The notes below the pieces were generated by a model. The model saw only the letters and a list, made by a program, of their open reading frames with translations, did no database searches and was not told the origin of the DNA. A stretch of 64,000 nucleotides of DNA, taken from NCBI RefSeq assembly GCF_009914755.1, contig NC_060929.1; one strand, written 5' to 3'. A program made the translations under genes and the position numbers. The stretch's first letter is position 1. Each line of letters opens with the position of its first letter. Shown here in pieces: positions 2,093-25,895 of this stretch. Source of the stretch: the human T2T-CHM13v2.0 reference genome, Homo sapiens.

Positions 2093-4717
2093 TCAATCAG
2101 TTCCTGGAACTTTTTTCTAACTCTACTGTTGTGACCAGATGTGGGAATGCTTATCATGGTTTATACACTACGATTGGTTTCTCTAGTATAACTTGACTGT
2201 GTACTCTTGACTTTTCTTGGTATGTCAGAATTGTTCCGTATAACTCAAACTTTCTCATGTGTACTAGAAGGCATGCATTTTCCTACACAGGGTACTAGTT
2301 TTCTCATTTACATGCCTCTGTAATGTAGTGTATACTCATTACCTAGGACACATATTCTTCTTGTGTCAGGTTAAAGGACCCTTTTCAACAGGTTCAACTT
2401 CCAGATTATCTAAATGAACTTCCCACAGGCAGAAGCAATCACACTACAGGAGGTTTTCCTTTACCTTTTTAGTAACTAGCCTAAAAACAAAGGTTTTATC
2501 TTTTATCAAGATAATTTCCTGTGTGGTTGTTTTTAGGTTTTTGATTACTCAGGAAAACTGAGCTTTAAATGTGTTAAGGGTTTTTTTTTTAATTCACATA
2601 ACTTTCTGTATTTCTTATAATGTCTTTTAATTATCACACTGATTAAATGAATGACTATTGTTTCACTGTTACCTGGAATCCTGTTTTGATCAAATGTTTT
2701 GAAGCTTTTGACTTCTTTGGCAGGCCTCTCGGTACCAAAGTTCTATATTACGTCTTTTTGACTAAAATTAACTTTGAGATTTATCAGTTGGGACATTTGA
2801 CAGTCTCAAAGATGTATCTCTCATATAATCTTATATATGTATTAAATCATTAGACTTGTTTTGTAAATTGCATAAGAAACATTGTCAAAAGATAAGTGAT
2901 AGTATATCTTCTTTTATATACATTTATGAGTATAGTATTAATAGGAATGTTCCAAAATTGTACAAAACTCTCAGAAATCTTTCATTAGTTGGAATTCTGG
3001 ATAATATGTTATACGCCACAAAATAACTAACGTTCCTTGTCTATTGCTAATTATAATGAACTTTAATCAGATGTTAACCTTGGCTATTCTAAGTTTTTGT
3101 CATCTACAGTCATTGTTTTGATTTTTCTTTAAAAACATCTGCAATCAGTTACAGTTCAAAATGTTTTTTTTAATGGAAAAGACTCTAACAAATACCCTTG
3201 AGCACAGATTTCTAATAACTTTAAAGTCAATGAACTAAATAATTTTTTTCAAAACTCTAATGAAGAAACTGATGGATTCATGAAGCTATTAATCAAGATA
3301 AAGCAAAACAAAAACCAATTACATGAGATTGAATAGTGATGAAGATAGTGCTTTTGTGATTTGTATTTAAAACACTGTTCATTCTTTACTTAAATGTTTT
3401 ATTTTCCAGATATAACAAAATTTCTCTTTAGCTTTCTACAGTTTACAACAATTTGATAAAGTATACTTTGTTAACAAAAATGAAAGCATTTACTTTTTAT
3501 CCCTACTTCATTCCTTGAAAATTCAAAAACTATTCATGAGTATTCTTATGACAATATGGTTATTCACATAAGTCCAATAAAACTCTGCTCTCTCCTTACG
3601 ATAAAATATAACACTGATTATATTACCAAAGCTTTCACTAAAATAGCATTTTGAAAATGTATAGAATGCTTGGCTTCAAGATTTCTCTGCCTTGTAGTGA
3701 GTAGATAAAAACTGTCACTTGCTGACAGGCTGAGGAACCTTGACTCTAGGTATAATCTAGAGCCTACATGAGTTTGGCTTCCTAGCCTCAAGAAATTTTA
3801 TATCTGAGAATCATATGTGGTCAATGAAGAGGGGAAAAGTTATGTTTCTAAAGAAAGCTATAAAACATGCTATTAAATTGCAGCTCTGTACATTGTTTTC
3901 AAGTTTTGTTATCTGCATATAGACAAAACTAGATACTGAATTCTTCTAGATTTCTACAATCCAAATTTTTTCCATGAAATTACTAAAATTAGGAACTGCA
4001 CTGTTCCTAAAATATTATGTGCTACAACTAGATACGTTGTAAGAAACATGTCTTGTGCCTGATATATGGGCCACACGGAAAGTTTACCAAGATGCCCATG
4101 ACCATAACCATAGACGTTCAAACTGCAAACCGGGATGAAAAATTGATGTTTTTACATGTAGATAGGTTTCCCCAAGATATCAGAACAAGACTTCATATCA
4201 CAGAGAGACTCACCCCTCTAAATGCGTGTACCTTTTTCACTTGACAGGATAACAGTTATTTGATTTATTCAATTGGTTGCCTTTAAACTGAAGTTCATGG
4301 TTCAAAATCATTTGTAAACTGGGATTGTTATACTACTACTAGTTTTACTTTATACTTTCTTTTTTAAAACCTTATATCTGTTACTTGTTAATTTTTTATA
4401 GAAATACAACTCCTAACAGTTTAATGCTGGTCCAGCACTTAAAGATGATAGCAAAACACTAGGAAACAGAAAAAATTAACCTTAATGATGGACTCTGGTT
4501 AGATTAAGCTTTAGAGTCATTCTCTTCAAACTTCCCTTGTTGCTCAAATGTGGCTAAAAGGGTTTTGACACTACTAGTGCCCTTTACTCCCTCCAACATG
4601 GAACCAGACCAGTAACCGTGGACAAGTTCATCTTGGCACTGAGGAACATCAAAACCTATCTACAGGATGATTTATCAGTGATGCTTTTGAAGAAATATCT
4701 TGATCAAAAGGGAAAAA
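2093..4717 (+). mobile_element. ERV1 (MER4-group, MER65-int-like) non-coding internal sequence
   Basis: AT-rich MER4-group-like internal sequence ending in a polypurine tract (aaaagggaaaaa, ~4706-4717) directly before an LTR. Degenerate env-TM-like codons at ~4265-4370. Confidence 0.7.
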
Positions 4718-19741: not shown

Positions 19742-19936
19742 AATCTACTGTTTTCTATTCTTTCCTTCTTTTTATCCCCAACCTTTATACTTCATATGTT
19801 CAATTGTAATGAGCTATCTCCAAATTTAGAATTTTCTATGTTTTTTCTCTTTTTCTTAATGCTTTGACAGAGATGTCTCAAAATTGACTCTAAAAAGTGG
19901 AAATCCCAATAACCCTTTTTATCACGGATACTTTTT

Positions 19937-20496
19937 AAGTGAAAGCAAGTTTATTAAAAAGTAAAGGAATTAAAAATAAAGGAATAAAGAATGGCTACTC
20001 TATAGCCAGAGCAGCTGCTTGAGCTGCTTGACTAAGGATACTTATTGCTATTTCTCGATTATATGCTAAACAAGGTGTGGATTATTCATGAGTTTTCCAG
20101 GAAAAGGGTGGGCAATTCGTGGAACTGAGGGTTCCTCCCCTTTTAATACCATATAGGGTAACTTCCTCAAATTGACATGGCATTTGTGAACTGTCATGGA
20201 GCTGCTGGGAGTGTCATTTAGCATTCAAATGTATTATAACTAGCATACAATGAGCCAAGAGGACAACTAGAGGTCACTCTTTTTGCCATCTTGGTTTTCA
20301 TGGGTTTTGGCTGGCTTCTTTACTGCAACCTGTTTTATTAGCAAGGTCTTTATGGCCTGTATCTTGTGTTGACCTCCTATCTCACCCTGTGACTTAGAAT
20401 GCTTAACCTCCTGGGCATGCAGCCCAATAGGTCTCAGCCTTATTTCATCCAGCCCTTATTCAAGATGGAGTGGCTCTGGCTCAAACACCTCTGAGC
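19937..20496 (-). mobile_element. MER41(B-like) 3' LTR, U3-R only (U5 absent)
   Basis: Reverse complement begins tcagaggtgtttgagccagagccactccatcttgaataagggctgg (MER41 5' end) after a PPT (rc agagggggaaaata). Ends 13 nt after AATAAA (19955-19950). Confidence 0.92.
20095..20124. promoter_or_regulatory. Tandem GAS (STAT) motifs in MER41 U3
   Basis: TTCCAGGAA (20095-20103) and TTCGTGGAA (20116-20124), both TTCN3GAA, at the position of the known MER41B tandem STAT1 sites. Confidence 0.6.
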
Positions 20497-23400
20497 TATT
20501 TTCCCCCTCTCTTTTATAAGAGAACCCTTAATCCTAAGGTTTGTAGAGGGATGAAGATTCATCTTCTATAACTTCCTTGGGATGAATAGGGGTGATGATA
20601 TTCCTGCCTAACTATTAGGGTGTCTGGTATTTGGGGCAGAAAGGAGCTCAGTCAGAAAGTGTTGGTATGCTCTGGACATGGTGGCTCACACCCGTAATCC
20701 CAGCACTTTGGGAGGCCAAGGTGGACTGATCATTTGTGGTAAGGAGTTTGAGACCAGCCTGGCCAACATGGTGAAACACCATCTGTACTAAAAATACAAA
20801 ATTAGTGAGGCATGGTGGCAGGTGGCTATAATCCCAGCTACTTAAGTACTTGGGAGGCTGAGGCAAGAGAATCTCTTGAACCTAGGAGGTGGAGGTTGCA
20901 CTGAGCCAAGATCCTGCCATTGCACTCCATCCTGGGTGAAAGAGCAAAACTCTGTCTCAAAAAAAAAAAAGAAAGAAAAGAAAAAGAAAAAACAAAGCAT
21001 CAGTATGTCAATGGCCATTCATAACTCTGAGTTCTGACAAAAGATTATATATGGAATGTTAATAAGTATTGAATATAAGAAAATGTTGAGTAAGCTTATG
21101 CTGCATTCATACAAAAGAGTATAACAGCAATATATTCCACAACAGTAAAGCGAAATTATCTCCAAAAGTAACTAAATTAGAAGGCTTTCCATGAACTGGG
21201 CAATGGTTGGAACCAAGCTGGTACAAGGTTGCTAGCCAATCCCAATATGTGCCCAGAATTAGAATATTGATTTCTTTTTTTTTTTTTTTTTTACATTACC
21301 AATCCCTCTTGTTTCTTCTGAGCAGCAGGCAGAGGTCACCGGCTGGCTCACAAGAATAAGCAAGGTTAGTCTAAATTGCAGGAAAAATCTCAAAAACAAT
21401 TAATGAGACTAGAATCTAATAACAGGTTTACCATAGTTCTTGAAACAATTTTTTTTCTCCCTCTAGTGTCCCATTTTTACTAAAGACAAATCATGGTAAG
21501 ATTGATTAGCTTTATTTATTTGGCCTGATTATTTATACATATATATAAAGTACAGCAAAAATAATTATTTTTCCCATGGGCTTTTAAAATTGGCTTTGAT
21601 GGAAGTTTATTCCATAAGGAATCTCAGACAAGACTTTTTTAAAGCCGAGTCCAGCCATGGGTTTATACCCTCAAGTACCTGTATGAGTTGGGTCAATTCC
21701 TCTCCTCTTGAGGTCCTGAGATAAAATGGGGCTCCTGGACCTATCAGAAATGACATTCTTTATTTAGCACAGCTCAGGAACCCTGTACAGGGACTATGTA
21801 GACAAGATATGAGGCCAGTTGTCCCAGGGGGCTTTTATTGGCTCTACAAGTCAAGTTTGATGCCTTAAAGGAAAGCATGATGTGTGAAGCACCAATCCAG
21901 TCGAAGTCTTGGTAAAATAATCAGTTTCTCCAATTGTGTCCTGTTGTAAAACAAAATACTTTTATTGCACTTATGCAAATAACTATATTGAAATAAGAAT
22001 AGTCACAAATAATTTCCAAATTCTGGGGAAAGCATGTAGAGAGAAACAAATATGCTCCAAATTTTGATCATGAGAGTATAATTTACTCAAATGTTAAAAG
22101 CTGTAAATAGCTCAACAGTTTTCTTGTTTCTGAAAAACAAAACAAAGGATCAATAATGTTTTAAGCAAAAAAAAGTCAAAAAAGGTTACTTCAGTCTTCT
22201 ATTAGTTCAGTTAATGCAGTTAACTCCTGTTATATTGATATTCATATTTCAGTTCTCCATGAGTACTGAAAGTTTATTCCTCTAATCTAATGTCACACTC
22301 TCCAAAGTTATCAGAAACCTGCATTCAAGAGCACCTGTCAAAGTCCTATAGCTTATTATAAACCACCTTTTGAAGAGAATCAAAGCAAGACAATTATTAA
22401 TGAATTTAAAAAATCCGAGTTACGACAGCCACTATTAAAGCCACAATTGACAAAGAAATTTTGATTACTTCTGTGAGATGCAATAATTTTATATAGCAAT
22501 TATAACTATTAATAACATACACTAAGTCATATCAGGATTACAGGAGTTTCTCATAATTTCAGAACATATACCAATAACATATTTTTGCAAATACAGCCCA
22601 AAGAAAGCCAAATACCATTTCGTATTTGACAGTGCTTCCTGTATGTTGTTTACACCAAATAATCCAAATATGTCATTTTTGGACTTTATGGGATCTAATA
22701 TCTAAAATATTAATTAGGTCAGCAAAGATATAATTTATAATTTGATTTTGCAAAGTTTAAAACACTTGATATTATAAAATCAAATCCCAGGTCACCATAT
22801 ATCATTTACTTAGCCAAAATGACAACTCAAAAATTTTTAAAAGGCAGAAACCTTTACTCATAGATAAAGGGAAGAATTAGCTTTCCAAATAATCTGTCTT
22901 TTTTCTTTCCCTTTGTTTTCTATAGTTTATTCAAAAGGCAAACAAAAATCTTTTTCTTAACATAACATGAAAATCATGTTCGAGAAAGATAGCCAATCTC
23001 ACCCTTTGCTTTAGTGCATTATTAATGTCAAACCTAATTCTTAGTAATACCTTATAGACAAATCTATCTAATTTTAATGTCTGACTATAAGGTAAGATTT
23101 TCACAAACATTTTATAATCCTTTACAATGTTTGTTAAAGAGTGGATCATTGCTCTCAGGAAACCCTGTTGTGCTTTTATTCCAATGCTCAAATTACAAAT
23201 AAACTGAATAATACCCCTTTAATTTTAGGCAATATGTTCACACATAGAATTTCTTTTACAAGATTAATTTTTCATGAACCTTCTGCAACTTGTTCAAACC
23301 TTCAGCTTTATCTTCTCTAATGTAAAATGATCATTTAACCCTTTAATCTAGATAGAAAAAATCCACATTACCATGACTTCTTATAATCTTTTAACAAAAA

Positions 23401-25501
23401 CACATTTCACGTTCCTTACAAAACTTGCATGTAAAACAGTTTCTATGTCATAGAGATTACTTAATTAACGTGAACCAAAAAGCATTGCAATTATTTTTTC
23501 TGGTAAAATATTTGAGTTAATCGCTTATTTTAAGCTAATTAATCCAATTAATCAATGCTCTTTCATATCACACACACAACACATATAAATACACAGACAC
23601 ACAGAAGAAGATCCTGTAGTTGTAAGATTTTTTCATTTGCCAGTTTCTTAATTGGATTACTGGCTTCAGGGTGGATCCCTTGGAGGAACAGGGACAGGAA
23701 AGCATGCGATTTCTACAGCCTAATAAGCAGGCACAGCTAGAGGGCAAAACAGATCTCCAAAAGTTAAGGGTCCCATTTTTGTACCAGATCATGGATGTCA
23801 AAAAGAGAAATGCTATGTAACAAGACAGTACAATGATTTTACTGTACAATTCATTGCAAAGCAACCTAAAGCCAATCAGCCTCCTCAGTGATCAGCCCAT
23901 CCCCCATGGGAGTGATAACTCAGTGTGGGGTGGGGACACCTCCATACCTTCCAGGTGACCAAGAGCATGCTTCTCTGATCCTAACGGGCAAAGAGCTGAG
24001 TATCCCTCCATAACTGCCATTATCTATGCCCAAAAGTATATTTCTGACCTAGGTATTACCCACCAAAGCTCTCTCATAATGCAAAATAATTTCTGATACC
24101 TCCGAAAGTCAAAAACATCAGATAATCAATGCAAAACAGAATAGGACCTTAGAGTTTGAGAAGGATCTATCCACTTCCAATTGCTGGATTTTATGAGGAA
24201 AACAGATTTTTCCCAAAACAAGATCTGTGGAAAAACTCCTTGTTTTTCCAAAGAAGTCCCAGGCAGTTAGAGCTTGAATATCAGCTTTTAATTAAGCTGA
24301 CTTTTAACCATAGCACTCTTTTAAAAAGTTCTTTAAATTTCTTACTACCTGATGTTAGCCAGGCTACATGGCTGATATTTCTGACATTTGAACTCTATCA
24401 AAAGCAACCTCACCAATGAGCCTTGACTAAGTTTATGACTTAATCACAAGTATATGAGATATTTTCAAAGAGGTGGTAAGCAGTGTTTACAAGACCTAAA
24501 GGTAGGTCAGAGAAAGGAAAATTGAAGATGGTTCATGCAGTGGAGGAGAATCAACAAATGGTTCACACAGATATCAACGAGAAAATACTTATTCCCTAAG
24601 CCTGGATTGAACCCTGGGCTGCCATTTTAAAAAGGCAAAGCCTTAGCTGCTGAGCTACAGCATTGGGCAGTTTCCAGTGCCATTTTCAGAAGAAGCCTAG
24701 ATCAGCCAATTTTGAGCTTGTGAAGGCTTTCAAATGCTCAAGATAATTTTTAGGGCTAACTAAGACATGAACCCCCAAATTCTTGTCCACTGGATAGTGG
24801 AAACCAAGAGAAAGTACCGCCACATGATTACAAGATCAATCTCCCACAGGCGTTTTTCAACATGTGGTCTCTGGACAAGACAATCACCCTGAGTAACAGA
24901 CAAGATAGGAAAGGTAAAGTAGAGAAAGAAAGAAAAGCATTGCCTCAGCAGGGTGGGAAAGGTGAGGAGCTCAGGCAGGCCAGAGAATGACCCACCCATT
25001 TTAGAGACACTGAATCGAAAGTTCAGGTGGCTGCTTGTTAGCTGTGAAGGGACATTTGCAAGCAGTCCTGTCAGCTCTCAAATTTCCCCTTTTAGGGAGG
25101 AAAAAGCTCCCCATGTCCCACAATCCTGTAAATACCTAATTCTGTCACGCACAGTCATCAGCAAAGAGTGCAAGACAGATTAATCCAAAGAGAATAGCAA
25201 TTAACATCCCATAGTGTCAAACCTGTTCTTAGGAGCAGGGACTTTCCTCATGGCAGGTGGGTTCTAACCCCCTCAATCTTAGGAAGGACTCTAACCTTCC
25301 TAATTTGAGCCTCAAACCCACCTTTTTTCAAGAGGGGCCTTTAAAACTCTCTGTCTTAGGAGAGACTCTTAACTCCTCTTAAGTTGGGCCTCTAATGAAA
25401 TCCCATCACCGCTTACCCAAAGTCAGCCAATTTGTACTGCAGTCTATTTCCTTTGGGTCAGGGGTCTCCTCATATCATCTCTTCAGGATTCACCAGGAAG
25501 A
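20497..25501 (-). mobile_element. MER41/MER4-group internal sequence (non-coding)
   Basis: Lies between the two MER41 LTR parts. PBS-region text (rc taacatcttcctggtga) at the right end, PPT at the left end. No gag/pol/env ORFs in the track. Confidence 0.85.
20671..20993 (+). mobile_element. AluS inserted in the MER41 internal region
   Basis: Full dimer. TSD aaagtgttggtatg (20656-20669) / aaagcatcagtatg (20994-21007). Confidence 0.95.
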
Positions 25502-25662
25502 TGTTACTGGAAAGGAAAGGGGTCCTGATCCAGACCTAGAAAGAGGGTTCTTAGATCTCATCCAAGAAAGGATTTGAGGTGAATCCATAGGGTAAAGTGA
25601 AAGCAAGTTTATTAACAAAGTAAAGGAATAAAGAATGGCTATTCCATAGGCAGAGTGTCCTG
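25502..25662 (-). mobile_element. MER41 5' LTR, R-U5 only (U3 absent)
   Basis: Reverse complement reads ctctgcctatggaatagccattc...aataaacttgctttcacttt...gaaccctc...ggacccctttcc...agtaaca, i.e. the MER41 3' terminus. Similarity stops at ~25660. Confidence 0.9.
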
Positions 25663-25895
25663 ATCACTGTCCCTTTTTAATGGCATGTGTAAATAGAAAG
25701 GGGAAAGTAAATCAATATATCATTTTACATAAAATACTACAAATGAAATTATCATGCTATAACTAAGTAATAATAAATATTAGAAAGACAGATACATTTA
25801 GGTACTAGCTAAAGTCCTTCATTAATTTTTCTATTTTGAAACTCATTTAAATCTATTATCTTTCTATTTATGGTTTTCCATCTACTATTGCCAAT

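What the first reader, a model, noticed from the sequence alone, without database searches (positions are those of the whole stretch)
19921..25680. MER41 endogenous retrovirus that looks like an L1-retrotransposed processed RNA rather than a provirus
Seen (minus strand): the 5' LTR has only R-U5 (25662-25502), followed by the PBS region, ~5 kb of non-coding internal sequence, a PPT, and a 3' LTR with only U3-R. The 3' LTR stops 13 nt after AATAAA and runs into AAAAA. The flanks are atcacggatacttttt (19921-19936) and atcactgtcccttttt (25663-25678), 12/16 identical, and the right copy is followed by AA, giving the L1 endonuclease consensus TTTT/AA on the correct side. Integrase would leave two full LTRs and a 4-6 bp TSD. 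Known: R-U5...U3-R-polyA retrocopies made by L1 in trans are well described for HERV-W. I do not recall this being described for MER41. Inference: a non-autonomous ERV RNA was copied full-length by L1, a second route for spreading MER41 interferon-responsive U3 sequence. Caveats: the A-tail is very short and the TSD is degraded.
Basis: partly seen in the sequence, partly recalled or inferred. Interest (0 to 1): 0.8.

Follow-up and report, generated by a model that had tools for sequence, protein, structure and literature searches.

The report
L1-made retrocopy of MER41 retrovirus RNA
This stretch is a DNA copy of a whole non-coding MER41 endogenous-retrovirus RNA that was pasted into the genome by the LINE-1 machinery rather than by a retroviral integrase, and many other MER41 copies in the genome share the same signature, which the papers I could search ascribe only to the HERV-W family.

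Summary

**The element.** On the minus strand, window 25662-19937 reads R-U5, PBS-like leader, about 5 kb of non-coding internal sequence, PPT, then U3-R. It stops 13 nt after AATAAA and runs into AAAAA. The flanking 16-mers match 12/16, behind a TT/AAAAA site.

**Weak points in this copy alone.** The A-tail is only 5 A. The duplication has a chance probability of about 0.02 in fixed register.

**Both ends recur across the genome:**
- 11 of 29 other 3' LTRs attached to internal sequence stop at the same site and continue with A-rich tails.
- 10 of 21 sampled 5' ends start at the same GGCTGC with no U3.
- Five other elements have duplications that begin with A-runs. Four have 12-15 matching bases and the fifth a perfect 9-nt core. 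One of the five lacks an exact GT...AG intron, so it came from spliced RNA.
- Full LTRs instead show TG...CA ends with 4-nt duplications.
- 46 of 670 forward-strand exact R-end 18-mers are followed by A7, against 0 of 1016 for a control 18-mer.

**Novelty.** The mechanism is known from HERV-W. Five full-text searches found no paper describing it for MER41, and one review calls HERV-W the sole such group. Pavlicek 2002 and the Repbase/Dfam notes could not be read. I rate it a new member of a known kind.

The parts
25679..25680 (-). TT directly 5' of the duplication. Together with the next A's it gives TT/AAAAA, the LINE-1 endonuclease target read on the element's sense strand.
   Evidence: Sequence. 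Motif definition from PMC5016936 (passages).
25663..25678 (-). 5' copy of the target-site duplication, AAAAAGGGACAGTGAT.
   Evidence: 12/16 identical to the 3' copy, in register with both junctions.
25595..25662 (-). R of the 5' partial LTR. The transcript start is GGACAC at about 25660; no U3 lies upstream.
   Evidence: Ten other copies start at the same GGCTGC.
25502..25594 (-). U5, ending ...ccagtaaca.
   Evidence: Aligns to U5 of full LTRs.
25478..25495 (-). PBS-like TGG... stretch, 6 nt after the LTR end.
   Evidence: Sequence. The same tcttcctggtga... follows the full 5' LTR of L018. The tRNA match was not tested.
25411..25418 (-). Splice donor ...tttgg|gtaagc (GT at 25416-25415) in the leader. 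It is unused in this copy.
   Evidence: Locus L013 joins exactly here to the acceptor.
22125..22145 (-). Splice acceptor, a pyrimidine tract followed by cag|aaacaag (the intron ends at 22130).
   Evidence: The L013 junction CTTTGG|AATCAAG equals donor exon plus acceptor exon.
20497..25501 (-).
   Evidence: genome-wide hits at 70-88% identity for four pieces; no coding signal.
20690..21001 (+). A later Alu insertion inside the element, antisense to it.
   Evidence: (sequence), the hub's repeat mask 20736-21001, and Alu-to-Alu hits.
20499..20515 (-). Polypurine tract.
   Evidence: It lies 2 nt before the LTR start defined.
20017..20496 (-). Complete U3 of the 3' LTR.
   Evidence: aligns from the first LTR base of 23 other full LTRs.
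20095..20124 (-). Two TTCnnnGAA (GAS-type) motifs, TTCCACGAA at 20124-20116 and TTCCTGGAA at 20103-20095. They lie inside the 43-44-nt segment that some relatives lack.
   Evidence: sequence; the gap at query 427-471 in 8 of 29 loci. The MER41A/B 43-bp indel is described in PMC9963469 (passage).
19937..20016 (-). R of the 3' LTR, with AATAAA at 19955-19950 and the end 13 nt later. It contains a 15-nt internal duplication relative to the 5' R.
   Evidence: The same end is seen in 15 other distinct loci.
19921..19936 (-). A5, which is either the tail or the start of the duplication, followed by the 3' copy of the duplication: AAAAAGTATCCGTGAT.
19913..19920 (-). A second exact AAAAAGGG, directly behind the 3' 16-mer. 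Unexplained.

Best explanation
Window 25662-19937 (minus strand) is a processed pseudogene of a full-length, unspliced, polyadenylated RNA of a non-coding MER41-type endogenous retrovirus.

Proposed sequence of events:
1. The RNA was transcribed from a source provirus. It started at the U3/R border of the 5' LTR and was cleaved and polyadenylated 13 nt after the AATAAA in R of the 3' LTR.
2. LINE-1 ORF2p nicked the target at TT/AAAAA and primed reverse transcription on the poly(A) tail (target-primed reverse transcription).
3. This left R-U5-internal-U3-R-(A)n between duplications of about 16 nt.

Shown here: the anatomy; the recurrence of both ends in many other copies; A-tails and long A-initiated duplications in other copies; a spliced sister copy; and the contrast with integrase-type LTRs.

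Inferred: that LINE-1 was the enzyme (from the target motif, tails and duplication lengths), and that the copy arrived without a 5' promoter while still carrying a complete 3' U3 with two GAS-type motifs.
For: **(1) Anatomy.** Searches show R-U5 only at the 5' end and U3-R only at the 3' end. The element ends 13 nt after AATAAA.

**(2) Recurrent 3' end.**
- In 29 other loci found with the 3' internal end, 11 stop within a few nt of the same site. Ten of these 11 continue with A-rich tails: A9-A19 runs, or decayed (AAAT)n/(CAA)n-like tails. L040 has only a short AGAAAA. Of the rest, 17 have U5 and 1 is truncated.
- In the LTR-query set, all 6 LTRs with internal sequence upstream end there.
- That makes 15 distinct loci in all.

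**(3) Recurrent 5' end.** I sampled 21 places upstream of 5' leaders.
- 10 start at GGCTGC with unrelated sequence upstream.
- 7 continue into U3.
- 2 are X/Y twins that keep some U3.
- 1 has an Alu there and 1 starts inside R.

**(4) Duplications in other elements.**
- L062/L042: 15/15.
- L068/L084: 15/15.
- L061/L056: 13/16.
- L013: 12/13, behind an A19 tail.
- L074/L086: 9/9 core, about 16/20 overall.
All begin with A-runs.

**(5) Spliced sister copy.** L013 lacks exactly the interval between a GTAAG donor (25416) and a CAG acceptor (22130) of the window copy. This shows an RNA intermediate.

**(6) Genome-wide pattern counts.** The exact R-end 18-mer occurs 1304 times. On the forward strand, 46 of 670 are followed within 0-4 nt by A7. 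A control 18-mer 37 nt upstream occurs 1016 times and none is followed by A7. The reversed-pattern controls gave 0.

**(7) Contrast with full LTRs.** Thirteen solo full LTRs printed start TG and end CA (a fourteenth, L018, is a 5' LTR followed by the leader). At least 5 of the 13 have perfect 4-nt duplications and 4 more match 3/4.
Against: - In this copy the tail is at most five A's, and these also belong to the duplication.
- The duplication has four clustered mismatches (GGAC A against TATC C). Its chance probability is only about 0.02-0.2.
- An exact AAAAAGGG recurs just behind the 3' 16-mer and is not explained.
- Two of the seven other elements with both ends in hand gave no clear duplication (L072/L085, and L078/L088, which is low complexity).
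- One apparent degenerate 'duplication' (L067/L083) proved false. This shows that degenerate A-rich matches are easy to over-read.
- No orthologous empty site could be examined, and the flanks are single-copy.
- The name MER41 could not be tested against Dfam or Repbase.
Confidence: 0.9

Rival explanations
1. It is an ordinary integrase-made provirus that later lost the U3 of its 5' LTR and the U5 of its 3' LTR by two independent deletions.
For: The element is old: its LTR is 80-85% identical to the other 39 scored copies. It carries later insertions (an Alu). The tail and duplication are poor.
Against: - Both breakpoints fall within about 2 nt of the ends shared by 10 (5') and 15 (3') other loci. 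These are the transcript start and the poly(A) site.
- The four bases abutting the two ends differ (TGAT against AAAA), so no integrase-type 4-nt duplication is present.
- TT/AAAAA lies at the 5' junction.
Confidence: 0.03
2. It is an L1-made retrocopy, but the true duplication is the exact 8-mer AAAAAGGG (25678-25671 and 19920-19913). Under this reading, about 10 nt of filler lies at the 5' junction and 16 nt (A5 plus 11 non-A bases) lies behind R, both ending in GTGAT.
For: The 8/8 match is exact, against 12/16 for the 16-mer. Extra nucleotides at 5' junctions of L1-mediated insertions are known (recalled, not tested here).
Against: - The 8-mer is out of register with both junctions.
- The tail would not abut the duplication.
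- The shared GTGAT at both ends would be a second coincidence.
- In the clear sister cases the duplication abuts the element and the tail directly.
Confidence: 0.06
3. The R-poly(A) ends are not retrocopy ends. Instead they belong to an LTR subfamily whose U5 begins with an A-run, or they are random truncations next to A-rich DNA.
For: Four listed pattern hits share the same TTTGC before the A-run. That could be a sequence variant rather than a tail.
Against: - The sequence behind the A-runs is unrelated between loci and unrelated to U5.
- Tails vary from A7 to A19 or are decayed microsatellites.
- Duplications of the 5' flank follow the tails.
- The control 18-mer inside R is never followed by A7 (0 of 1016).
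Confidence: 0.01

Closest known systems
HERV-W (LTR17/HERV17) processed pseudogenes made by LINE-1 (Pavlicek 2002, as summarised in Grandi 2016, PMC5016936)
   Same: - R-U5 at the 5' end and U3-R at the 3' end, a poly(A) tail, a TT/AAAA target, and duplications much longer than the integrase's.
- A large share of internal-bearing copies are of this type: 135 pseudogenes to 65 proviruses for HERV-W (PMC5016936), and here 11 of 29 3' ends and 10 of 21 5' ends.
- Occasional copies lack a leader intron (PMC6995185 for HERV-W; L013 here).
- MER41-int is listed in the same HERVW9 supergroup (PMC5753468 table; PMC4724089 heading).
   Different: - A different family, with different LTR and internal sequences.
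- The internal part here shows no gag/pol/env signal.
- The family is older: 45-60 million years for MER41 in PMC9963469, against 43-20 million years for ERV-W locus formation in PMC5775608. An older LINE-1 cohort would therefore have done the copying.
- The duplications seen here are 13-16 nt, against 5-15 nt quoted for HERV-W.
Processed pseudogenes (retrocopies) of cellular mRNAs
   Same: Colinear with a capped, polyadenylated, sometimes spliced Pol II transcript. A-tail, duplications, and no promoter at the 5' end.
   Different: The template is a retroviral genomic RNA. The copy therefore carries a complete promoter/enhancer (U3) at its 3' end and can seed regulatory sequence at the new site.
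Integrase-made MER41 proviruses and solo LTRs
   Same: The same LTR and internal sequences at 70-88% identity.
   Different: Full LTRs have TG...CA ends and 4-nt duplications. The window element has neither.

Membership tests
LINE-1-made ERV processed pseudogene (criteria of PMC5016936, after Pavlicek 2002) | The 5' LTR is R-U5 only, starting at the transcript start. | tested here: met
   there is no U3 upstream of 25662. The start coincides within 2 nt with 10 other copies.
LINE-1-made ERV processed pseudogene (criteria of PMC5016936, after Pavlicek 2002) | The 3' LTR is U3-R only, ending at the poly(A) site. | tested here: met
   the element ends 13 nt after AATAAA with no U5. The same end is seen in 15 other distinct loci.
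LINE-1-made ERV processed pseudogene (criteria of PMC5016936, after Pavlicek 2002) | [quoted passage not shown] | tested here: inconclusive
   There are only five A's, which are also the start of the duplication. Sister copies have A7-A19 or decayed A-rich tails.
LINE-1-made ERV processed pseudogene (criteria of PMC5016936, after Pavlicek 2002) | A TT/AAAA insertion motif. | tested here: met
   cca TT|AAAAAGGG at 25680-25671.
LINE-1-made ERV processed pseudogene (criteria of PMC5016936, after Pavlicek 2002) | A target-site duplication of variable length, longer than the integrase's. | tested here: met
   12/16, in register with both junctions. P is about 0.02 in fixed register, which is weak on its own. 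Clear in 5 sister elements.
LINE-1-made ERV processed pseudogene (criteria of PMC5016936, after Pavlicek 2002) | The empty site in outgroup species contains one copy of the duplicated bases. | not testable with these tools
   No primate genomes are held, and the flanks are single-copy in this genome.
MER41 LTR / MER41-int (Repbase/Dfam family) | Best match to the family's library consensus. | not testable with these tools
No Dfam or Repbase library is on hand.
MER41 LTR / MER41-int (Repbase/Dfam family) | Subfamilies differ by a 43-bp indel that holds the STAT1 motif (MER41B has it, MER41A lacks it; PMC9963469). | tested here: met
   Eight of 29 related LTRs lack 43-44 nt at query 427-471. The window keeps this segment (20133-20091) with two TTCnnnGAA motifs. 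This is indirect support for the name and for a MER41B-like type.
Integrase-made provirus | Two complete LTRs with TG...CA ends. | tested here: not met
Integrase-made provirus | A 4-nt duplication abutting both LTR ends, as in this family's full LTRs. | tested here: not met
   TGAT against AAAA at the two junctions. Full LTRs show 4-nt duplications.

The most novel reading that the evidence does not exclude
MER41-int is a non-coding retroviral RNA that was amplified to a large extent as a LINE-1 passenger. Roughly 40-50% of the copies that keep internal sequence are retrocopies, some of them from spliced RNA, and this happened some tens of millions of years before the HERV-W burst.

If so, HERV-W is not the only HERV group mobilised by LINE-1. 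Proneness to L1 capture may be a trait of RNAs of the HERVW9 supergroup. A measurable share of MER41 U3-R units with STAT1-type motifs would have been seeded by LINE-1, not by infection or integrase. At least about 70 have an exact R end plus A7.
Probability: 0.6. Interest if true: 0.7.

Novelty: new member of a known kind. Interest (0 to 1): 0.6.

Why it matters
[quoted passage not shown] A second, older and much more abundant family with the same signature would correct that statement. It would also offer a comparison pair within one supergroup for asking what makes a retroviral RNA a good LINE-1 passenger.

**A practical point for annotation.** MER41 LTRs are studied as interferon-inducible enhancers (PMC9963469).
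- Copies that are U3-R-poly(A) fragments have a different origin, a different target-site preference (A/T-rich L1 sites) and a different structure (no U5, no 5' promoter) from integrase-made LTRs.
- Dating by LTR-LTR divergence does not apply to them.

**For this window.** The locus is a dead-on-arrival retrocopy in a gene-poor region, with no annotated gene or functional element.

Tried and rejected
1. **A false duplication.** I first read a degenerate 20-nt 'duplication' for L067/L083. One search showed that the supposed 3' flank is internal sequence of the family: a short U3-R-A7 fragment sits in the internal A-run of another copy. I dropped it.
2. **A missed 3' end.** I guessed the 3' end of the C5:119.5 Mb copy and fetched an unrelated stretch that looks like LINE-1 coding sequence (that name is recalled, not tested). 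No use.
3. **3' end not reached.** For L077, the fetched piece L087 was U3 with an Alu.
4. **No paralogous empty site.** Both flanks are single-copy apart from an Alu.
5. **A badly designed test.** A shuffle test with a mismatch-penalised score gave an observed score of 0 and P = 1. It tells nothing. Only the fixed-register binomial is reported.
6. **Whole-element translation.** This cannot see badly decayed gag/pol/env, so 'non-coding' means no signal in nine sense-strand open stretches of 50 aa or more.
7. **The second gap in L013** (element 3655-4611) has no GT...AG ends and a 3-nt microhomology. I read it as a deletion, not an intron.
8. **The interval 21010-22010 with its A18 run.** I suspected a nested insertion, but it is colinear in many copies and belongs to the family.
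9. **Sources not available.** Pavlicek 2002 (PMC155283) is not held.
Full report
**What is there**

Read on the minus strand, the window holds one element from 25662 to 19937. Its parts, in order:
- A 161-nt partial LTR (25662-25502) ending ...ccagtaaca.
- Six bases, then a TGG... PBS-like stretch (25495-25478).
- About 5.0 kb of internal sequence (25501-20497), interrupted by an antisense Alu at about 20690-21001.
- A polypurine tract (20515-20499).
- A 560-nt partial LTR (20496-19937).

Aligned pairwise to 29 other LTR loci of the same family (one search found them; one search aligned them):
- The 3' part matches full LTRs from their first base up to 19937 and lacks the last 90 nt or so.
- The 5' part matches only the last 160 nt or so.
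- The two parts overlap in a 68-80-nt R segment: 3 mismatches in 61 aligned bases, one 1-nt gap and one 15-nt duplication in the 3' copy.
- AATAAA lies at 19955-19950 and the element ends 13 nt later.

AAAAAGGGACAGTGAT precedes the element and is itself preceded by TT. AAAAAGTATCCGTGAT follows it. They match 12/16.

**How strong is this copy on its own**

It is weak.
- The A-run is five bases and doubles as the start of the duplication.
- Beyond the A5, 7 of 11 positions match. In fixed register this has P about 0.02, and up to about 0.2 if a handful of registers are allowed.
- An exact AAAAAGGG, the first eight bases of the 5' copy, recurs directly behind the 3' 16-mer (19920-19913). I cannot explain it.
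- The flanks are single-copy, so no paralogous empty site exists, and no other primate genome is held.

The window's own genome could be searched.

*(a) 3' ends.* I queried with the last 195 nt of the internal region (377 first-look candidates, 40 scored, 29 non-self loci fetched). Of those 29 loci:
- 11 have a 3' LTR that stops within a few nt of the same site (...aataaacttgctttcact[t]). Ten of these continue with A9-A19 runs or with decayed A-rich microsatellite-like tails. One (L040) has only a short AGAAAA before an Alu.
- 17 carry U5.
- 1 has lost R.

In the LTR-query set (3547 candidates, 40 scored), six of 29 loci have internal sequence upstream, and all six end at that site. Two of them are the same places as in the first set, so there are 15 distinct loci.

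*(b) 5' ends.* One search listed 40 non-self places matching the 5' leader (344 candidates, 40 scored). I fetched 370-391 nt upstream for 21 of them: the 20 best whose match began at query base 1-3, plus the partner of L042.
- Ten begin at GGCTGCTCTGCC, within 2 nt of the window's start, with unrelated sequence upstream.
- Seven run on into U3.
- Two are X/Y twins with at least 45 nt more of U3.
- One has an Alu at that point.
- One starts about 38 nt inside R.

In 3' LTRs this start lies about 28-30 nt behind an ATAAAAAT/ATAAGTA box (read). That is where a Pol II start is expected.

*(c) Duplications.* For seven other elements I had both ends.

| Element | Duplication | Match |
|---|---|---|
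| L062/L042 | TAAAACTGAATGCCT | 15/15 |
| L068/L084 | AAGAAAATACAAATC | 15/15 |
| L061/L056 | AAAAATTGATGACGTC against AAAAAATGATAATGTC | 13/16 |
| L013 | AAAAAGAAACTCC against A19-GGAACTCC | 12/13 |
| L074/L086 | core TATCATGAC | 9/9, about 16/20 overall |
| L072/L085 | none clear | - |
| L078/L088 | low complexity | - |

All clear cases begin with an A-run.

*(d) RNA origin.* L013 lacks exactly the interval between ...tttgg|gtaagc (25417|25416) and ...tttttcag|aaacaag (22130|22129) of the window copy. Its junction reads CTTTGG|AATCAAG, so a GT...AG intron was removed before copying.

*(e) Genome-wide pattern counts.*
- The exact 18-mer AATAAACTTGCTTTCACT occurs 1304 times (670 forward, 634 reverse).
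- Followed within 0-4 nt by A7, it occurs at 46 forward sites.
- The reverse count of 75 is inflated, because overlapping registers are listed separately. The 100 listed rows hold 39 forward and 25 distinct reverse sites.
- Four listed hits share TTTGC before the A-run and may be something else.
- A control 18-mer 37 nt upstream in R occurs 1016 times, and none is followed by A7. The reversed-pattern controls were 0 throughout.

*(f) Contrast with full LTRs.* One search printed 14 full LTRs. Thirteen are solo LTRs; they start TG (two bases before the point where BLAST alignments begin) and end CA.
- Perfect 4-nt duplications are seen in at least five (L005, L008, L019, L021, L023).
- Four more match 3/4 (L002, L020, L028, L029).
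- The fourteenth, L018, is a complete 5' LTR followed by the same tcttcctggtga... leader as the window.

**Interpretation**

The set of features is exactly the one used to define HERV-W processed pseudogenes (PMC5016936, passages read, citing Pavlicek 2002): an R-U5 start at a Pol II start site, a U3-R end at the poly(A) site, A-tails, 13-16-nt duplications that open with A-runs behind T's, and a spliced sister copy. That definition attributes the process to LINE-1 target-primed reverse transcription.

The window element fits at both ends to within 2 nt. I therefore take it, with about 0.9 confidence, as a retrocopy of a full-length unspliced RNA.

That LINE-1 did the copying is an inference from the target motif, the tails and the duplication lengths. 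No other known human activity leaves that combination (established knowledge, not tested here).

**The internal region**

Four pieces of it hit many colinear copies elsewhere at 70-88% identity, so it belongs to the family. This includes the stretch with the A18 run, which I had suspected of being an insertion. Frame 1 of the whole element has 128 stops. Nine sense-strand open stretches of 50-107 aa have no Pfam match at E<=1. Badly decayed genes would escape this test.

**The name**

No Dfam or Repbase library is available, so 'MER41' is not directly tested.

Indirect support: eight of 29 related LTRs lack 43-44 nt at one place. This matches the 43-bp MER41A/B difference that holds the STAT1 motif (PMC9963469, passage). 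The window keeps that segment (20133-20091), with TTCCACGAA and TTCCTGGAA.

MER41-int is tabulated in the HERVW9 supergroup together with HERV17/HERV-W (PMC5753468 table; PMC4724089 heading).

**Novelty**

The mechanism is textbook for HERV-W. For MER41 I found no report.
- I read passages in PMC4724089, PMC5753468, PMC5537654, PMC6995185, PMC11359688, PMC5016936, PMC9963469 and PMC5775608.
[quoted passage not shown] The library lacks most subscription journals. Pavlicek 2002 is not held, and the Repbase and Dfam notes could not be seen. A prior mention therefore cannot be excluded; I put that at roughly one in three.

**Verdict**

- The element itself is a dead-on-arrival copy in a gene desert.
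- The interest lies in the family-level pattern.

Noticed in passing
Loci L003, L004, L007, L013, L025, L030, L032, L050, L059 and L064 (R region of the LTR): Ten of the fetched loci carry an antisense Alu at the same spot in R, right after ...cctttactttctt and just 5' of AATAAA, with the neighbouring bases duplicated. L004 and L007 look like copies of one event. The poly(A)-signal region of this LTR seems to be a recurrent LINE-1 endonuclease target.
   Followed up: partly
G000:C2:108082127-108082347 (partly in L083): A short U3-R-A7 fragment lies inside the internal A-run of another copy of the family. It may be a 5'-truncated retrocopy nested in a sister element. It produced a false 'duplication' in my first reading.
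   Followed up: partly
window 23001-22669 (query 600-932): Many copies of the internal region lack about 330 nt here. This is a common deletion variant or subfamily marker.
   Followed up: no
window 19913-19920: An exact repeat of AAAAAGGG, the first eight bases of the 5' flank copy, lies directly behind the 3' flank copy. Unexplained.
   Followed up: partly
window 19956-19985: The 3' R carries a 15-nt tandem duplication (attcctttattttta / attcctttacttttt...) that is absent from the 5' R.
   Followed up: no
L079 (X) and L081 (Y): Two nearly identical copies lie on contigs C23 and C24, differing at one base in the 50 nt of flank shown. They represent one event in X/Y-shared DNA and were counted once.
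   Followed up: no
L013, element positions 3655-4611 of the window copy: A second gap in the spliced retrocopy has no GT...AG ends but does have a 3-nt microhomology (TAT). It is probably a deletion, either in the source or after insertion.
   Followed up: no
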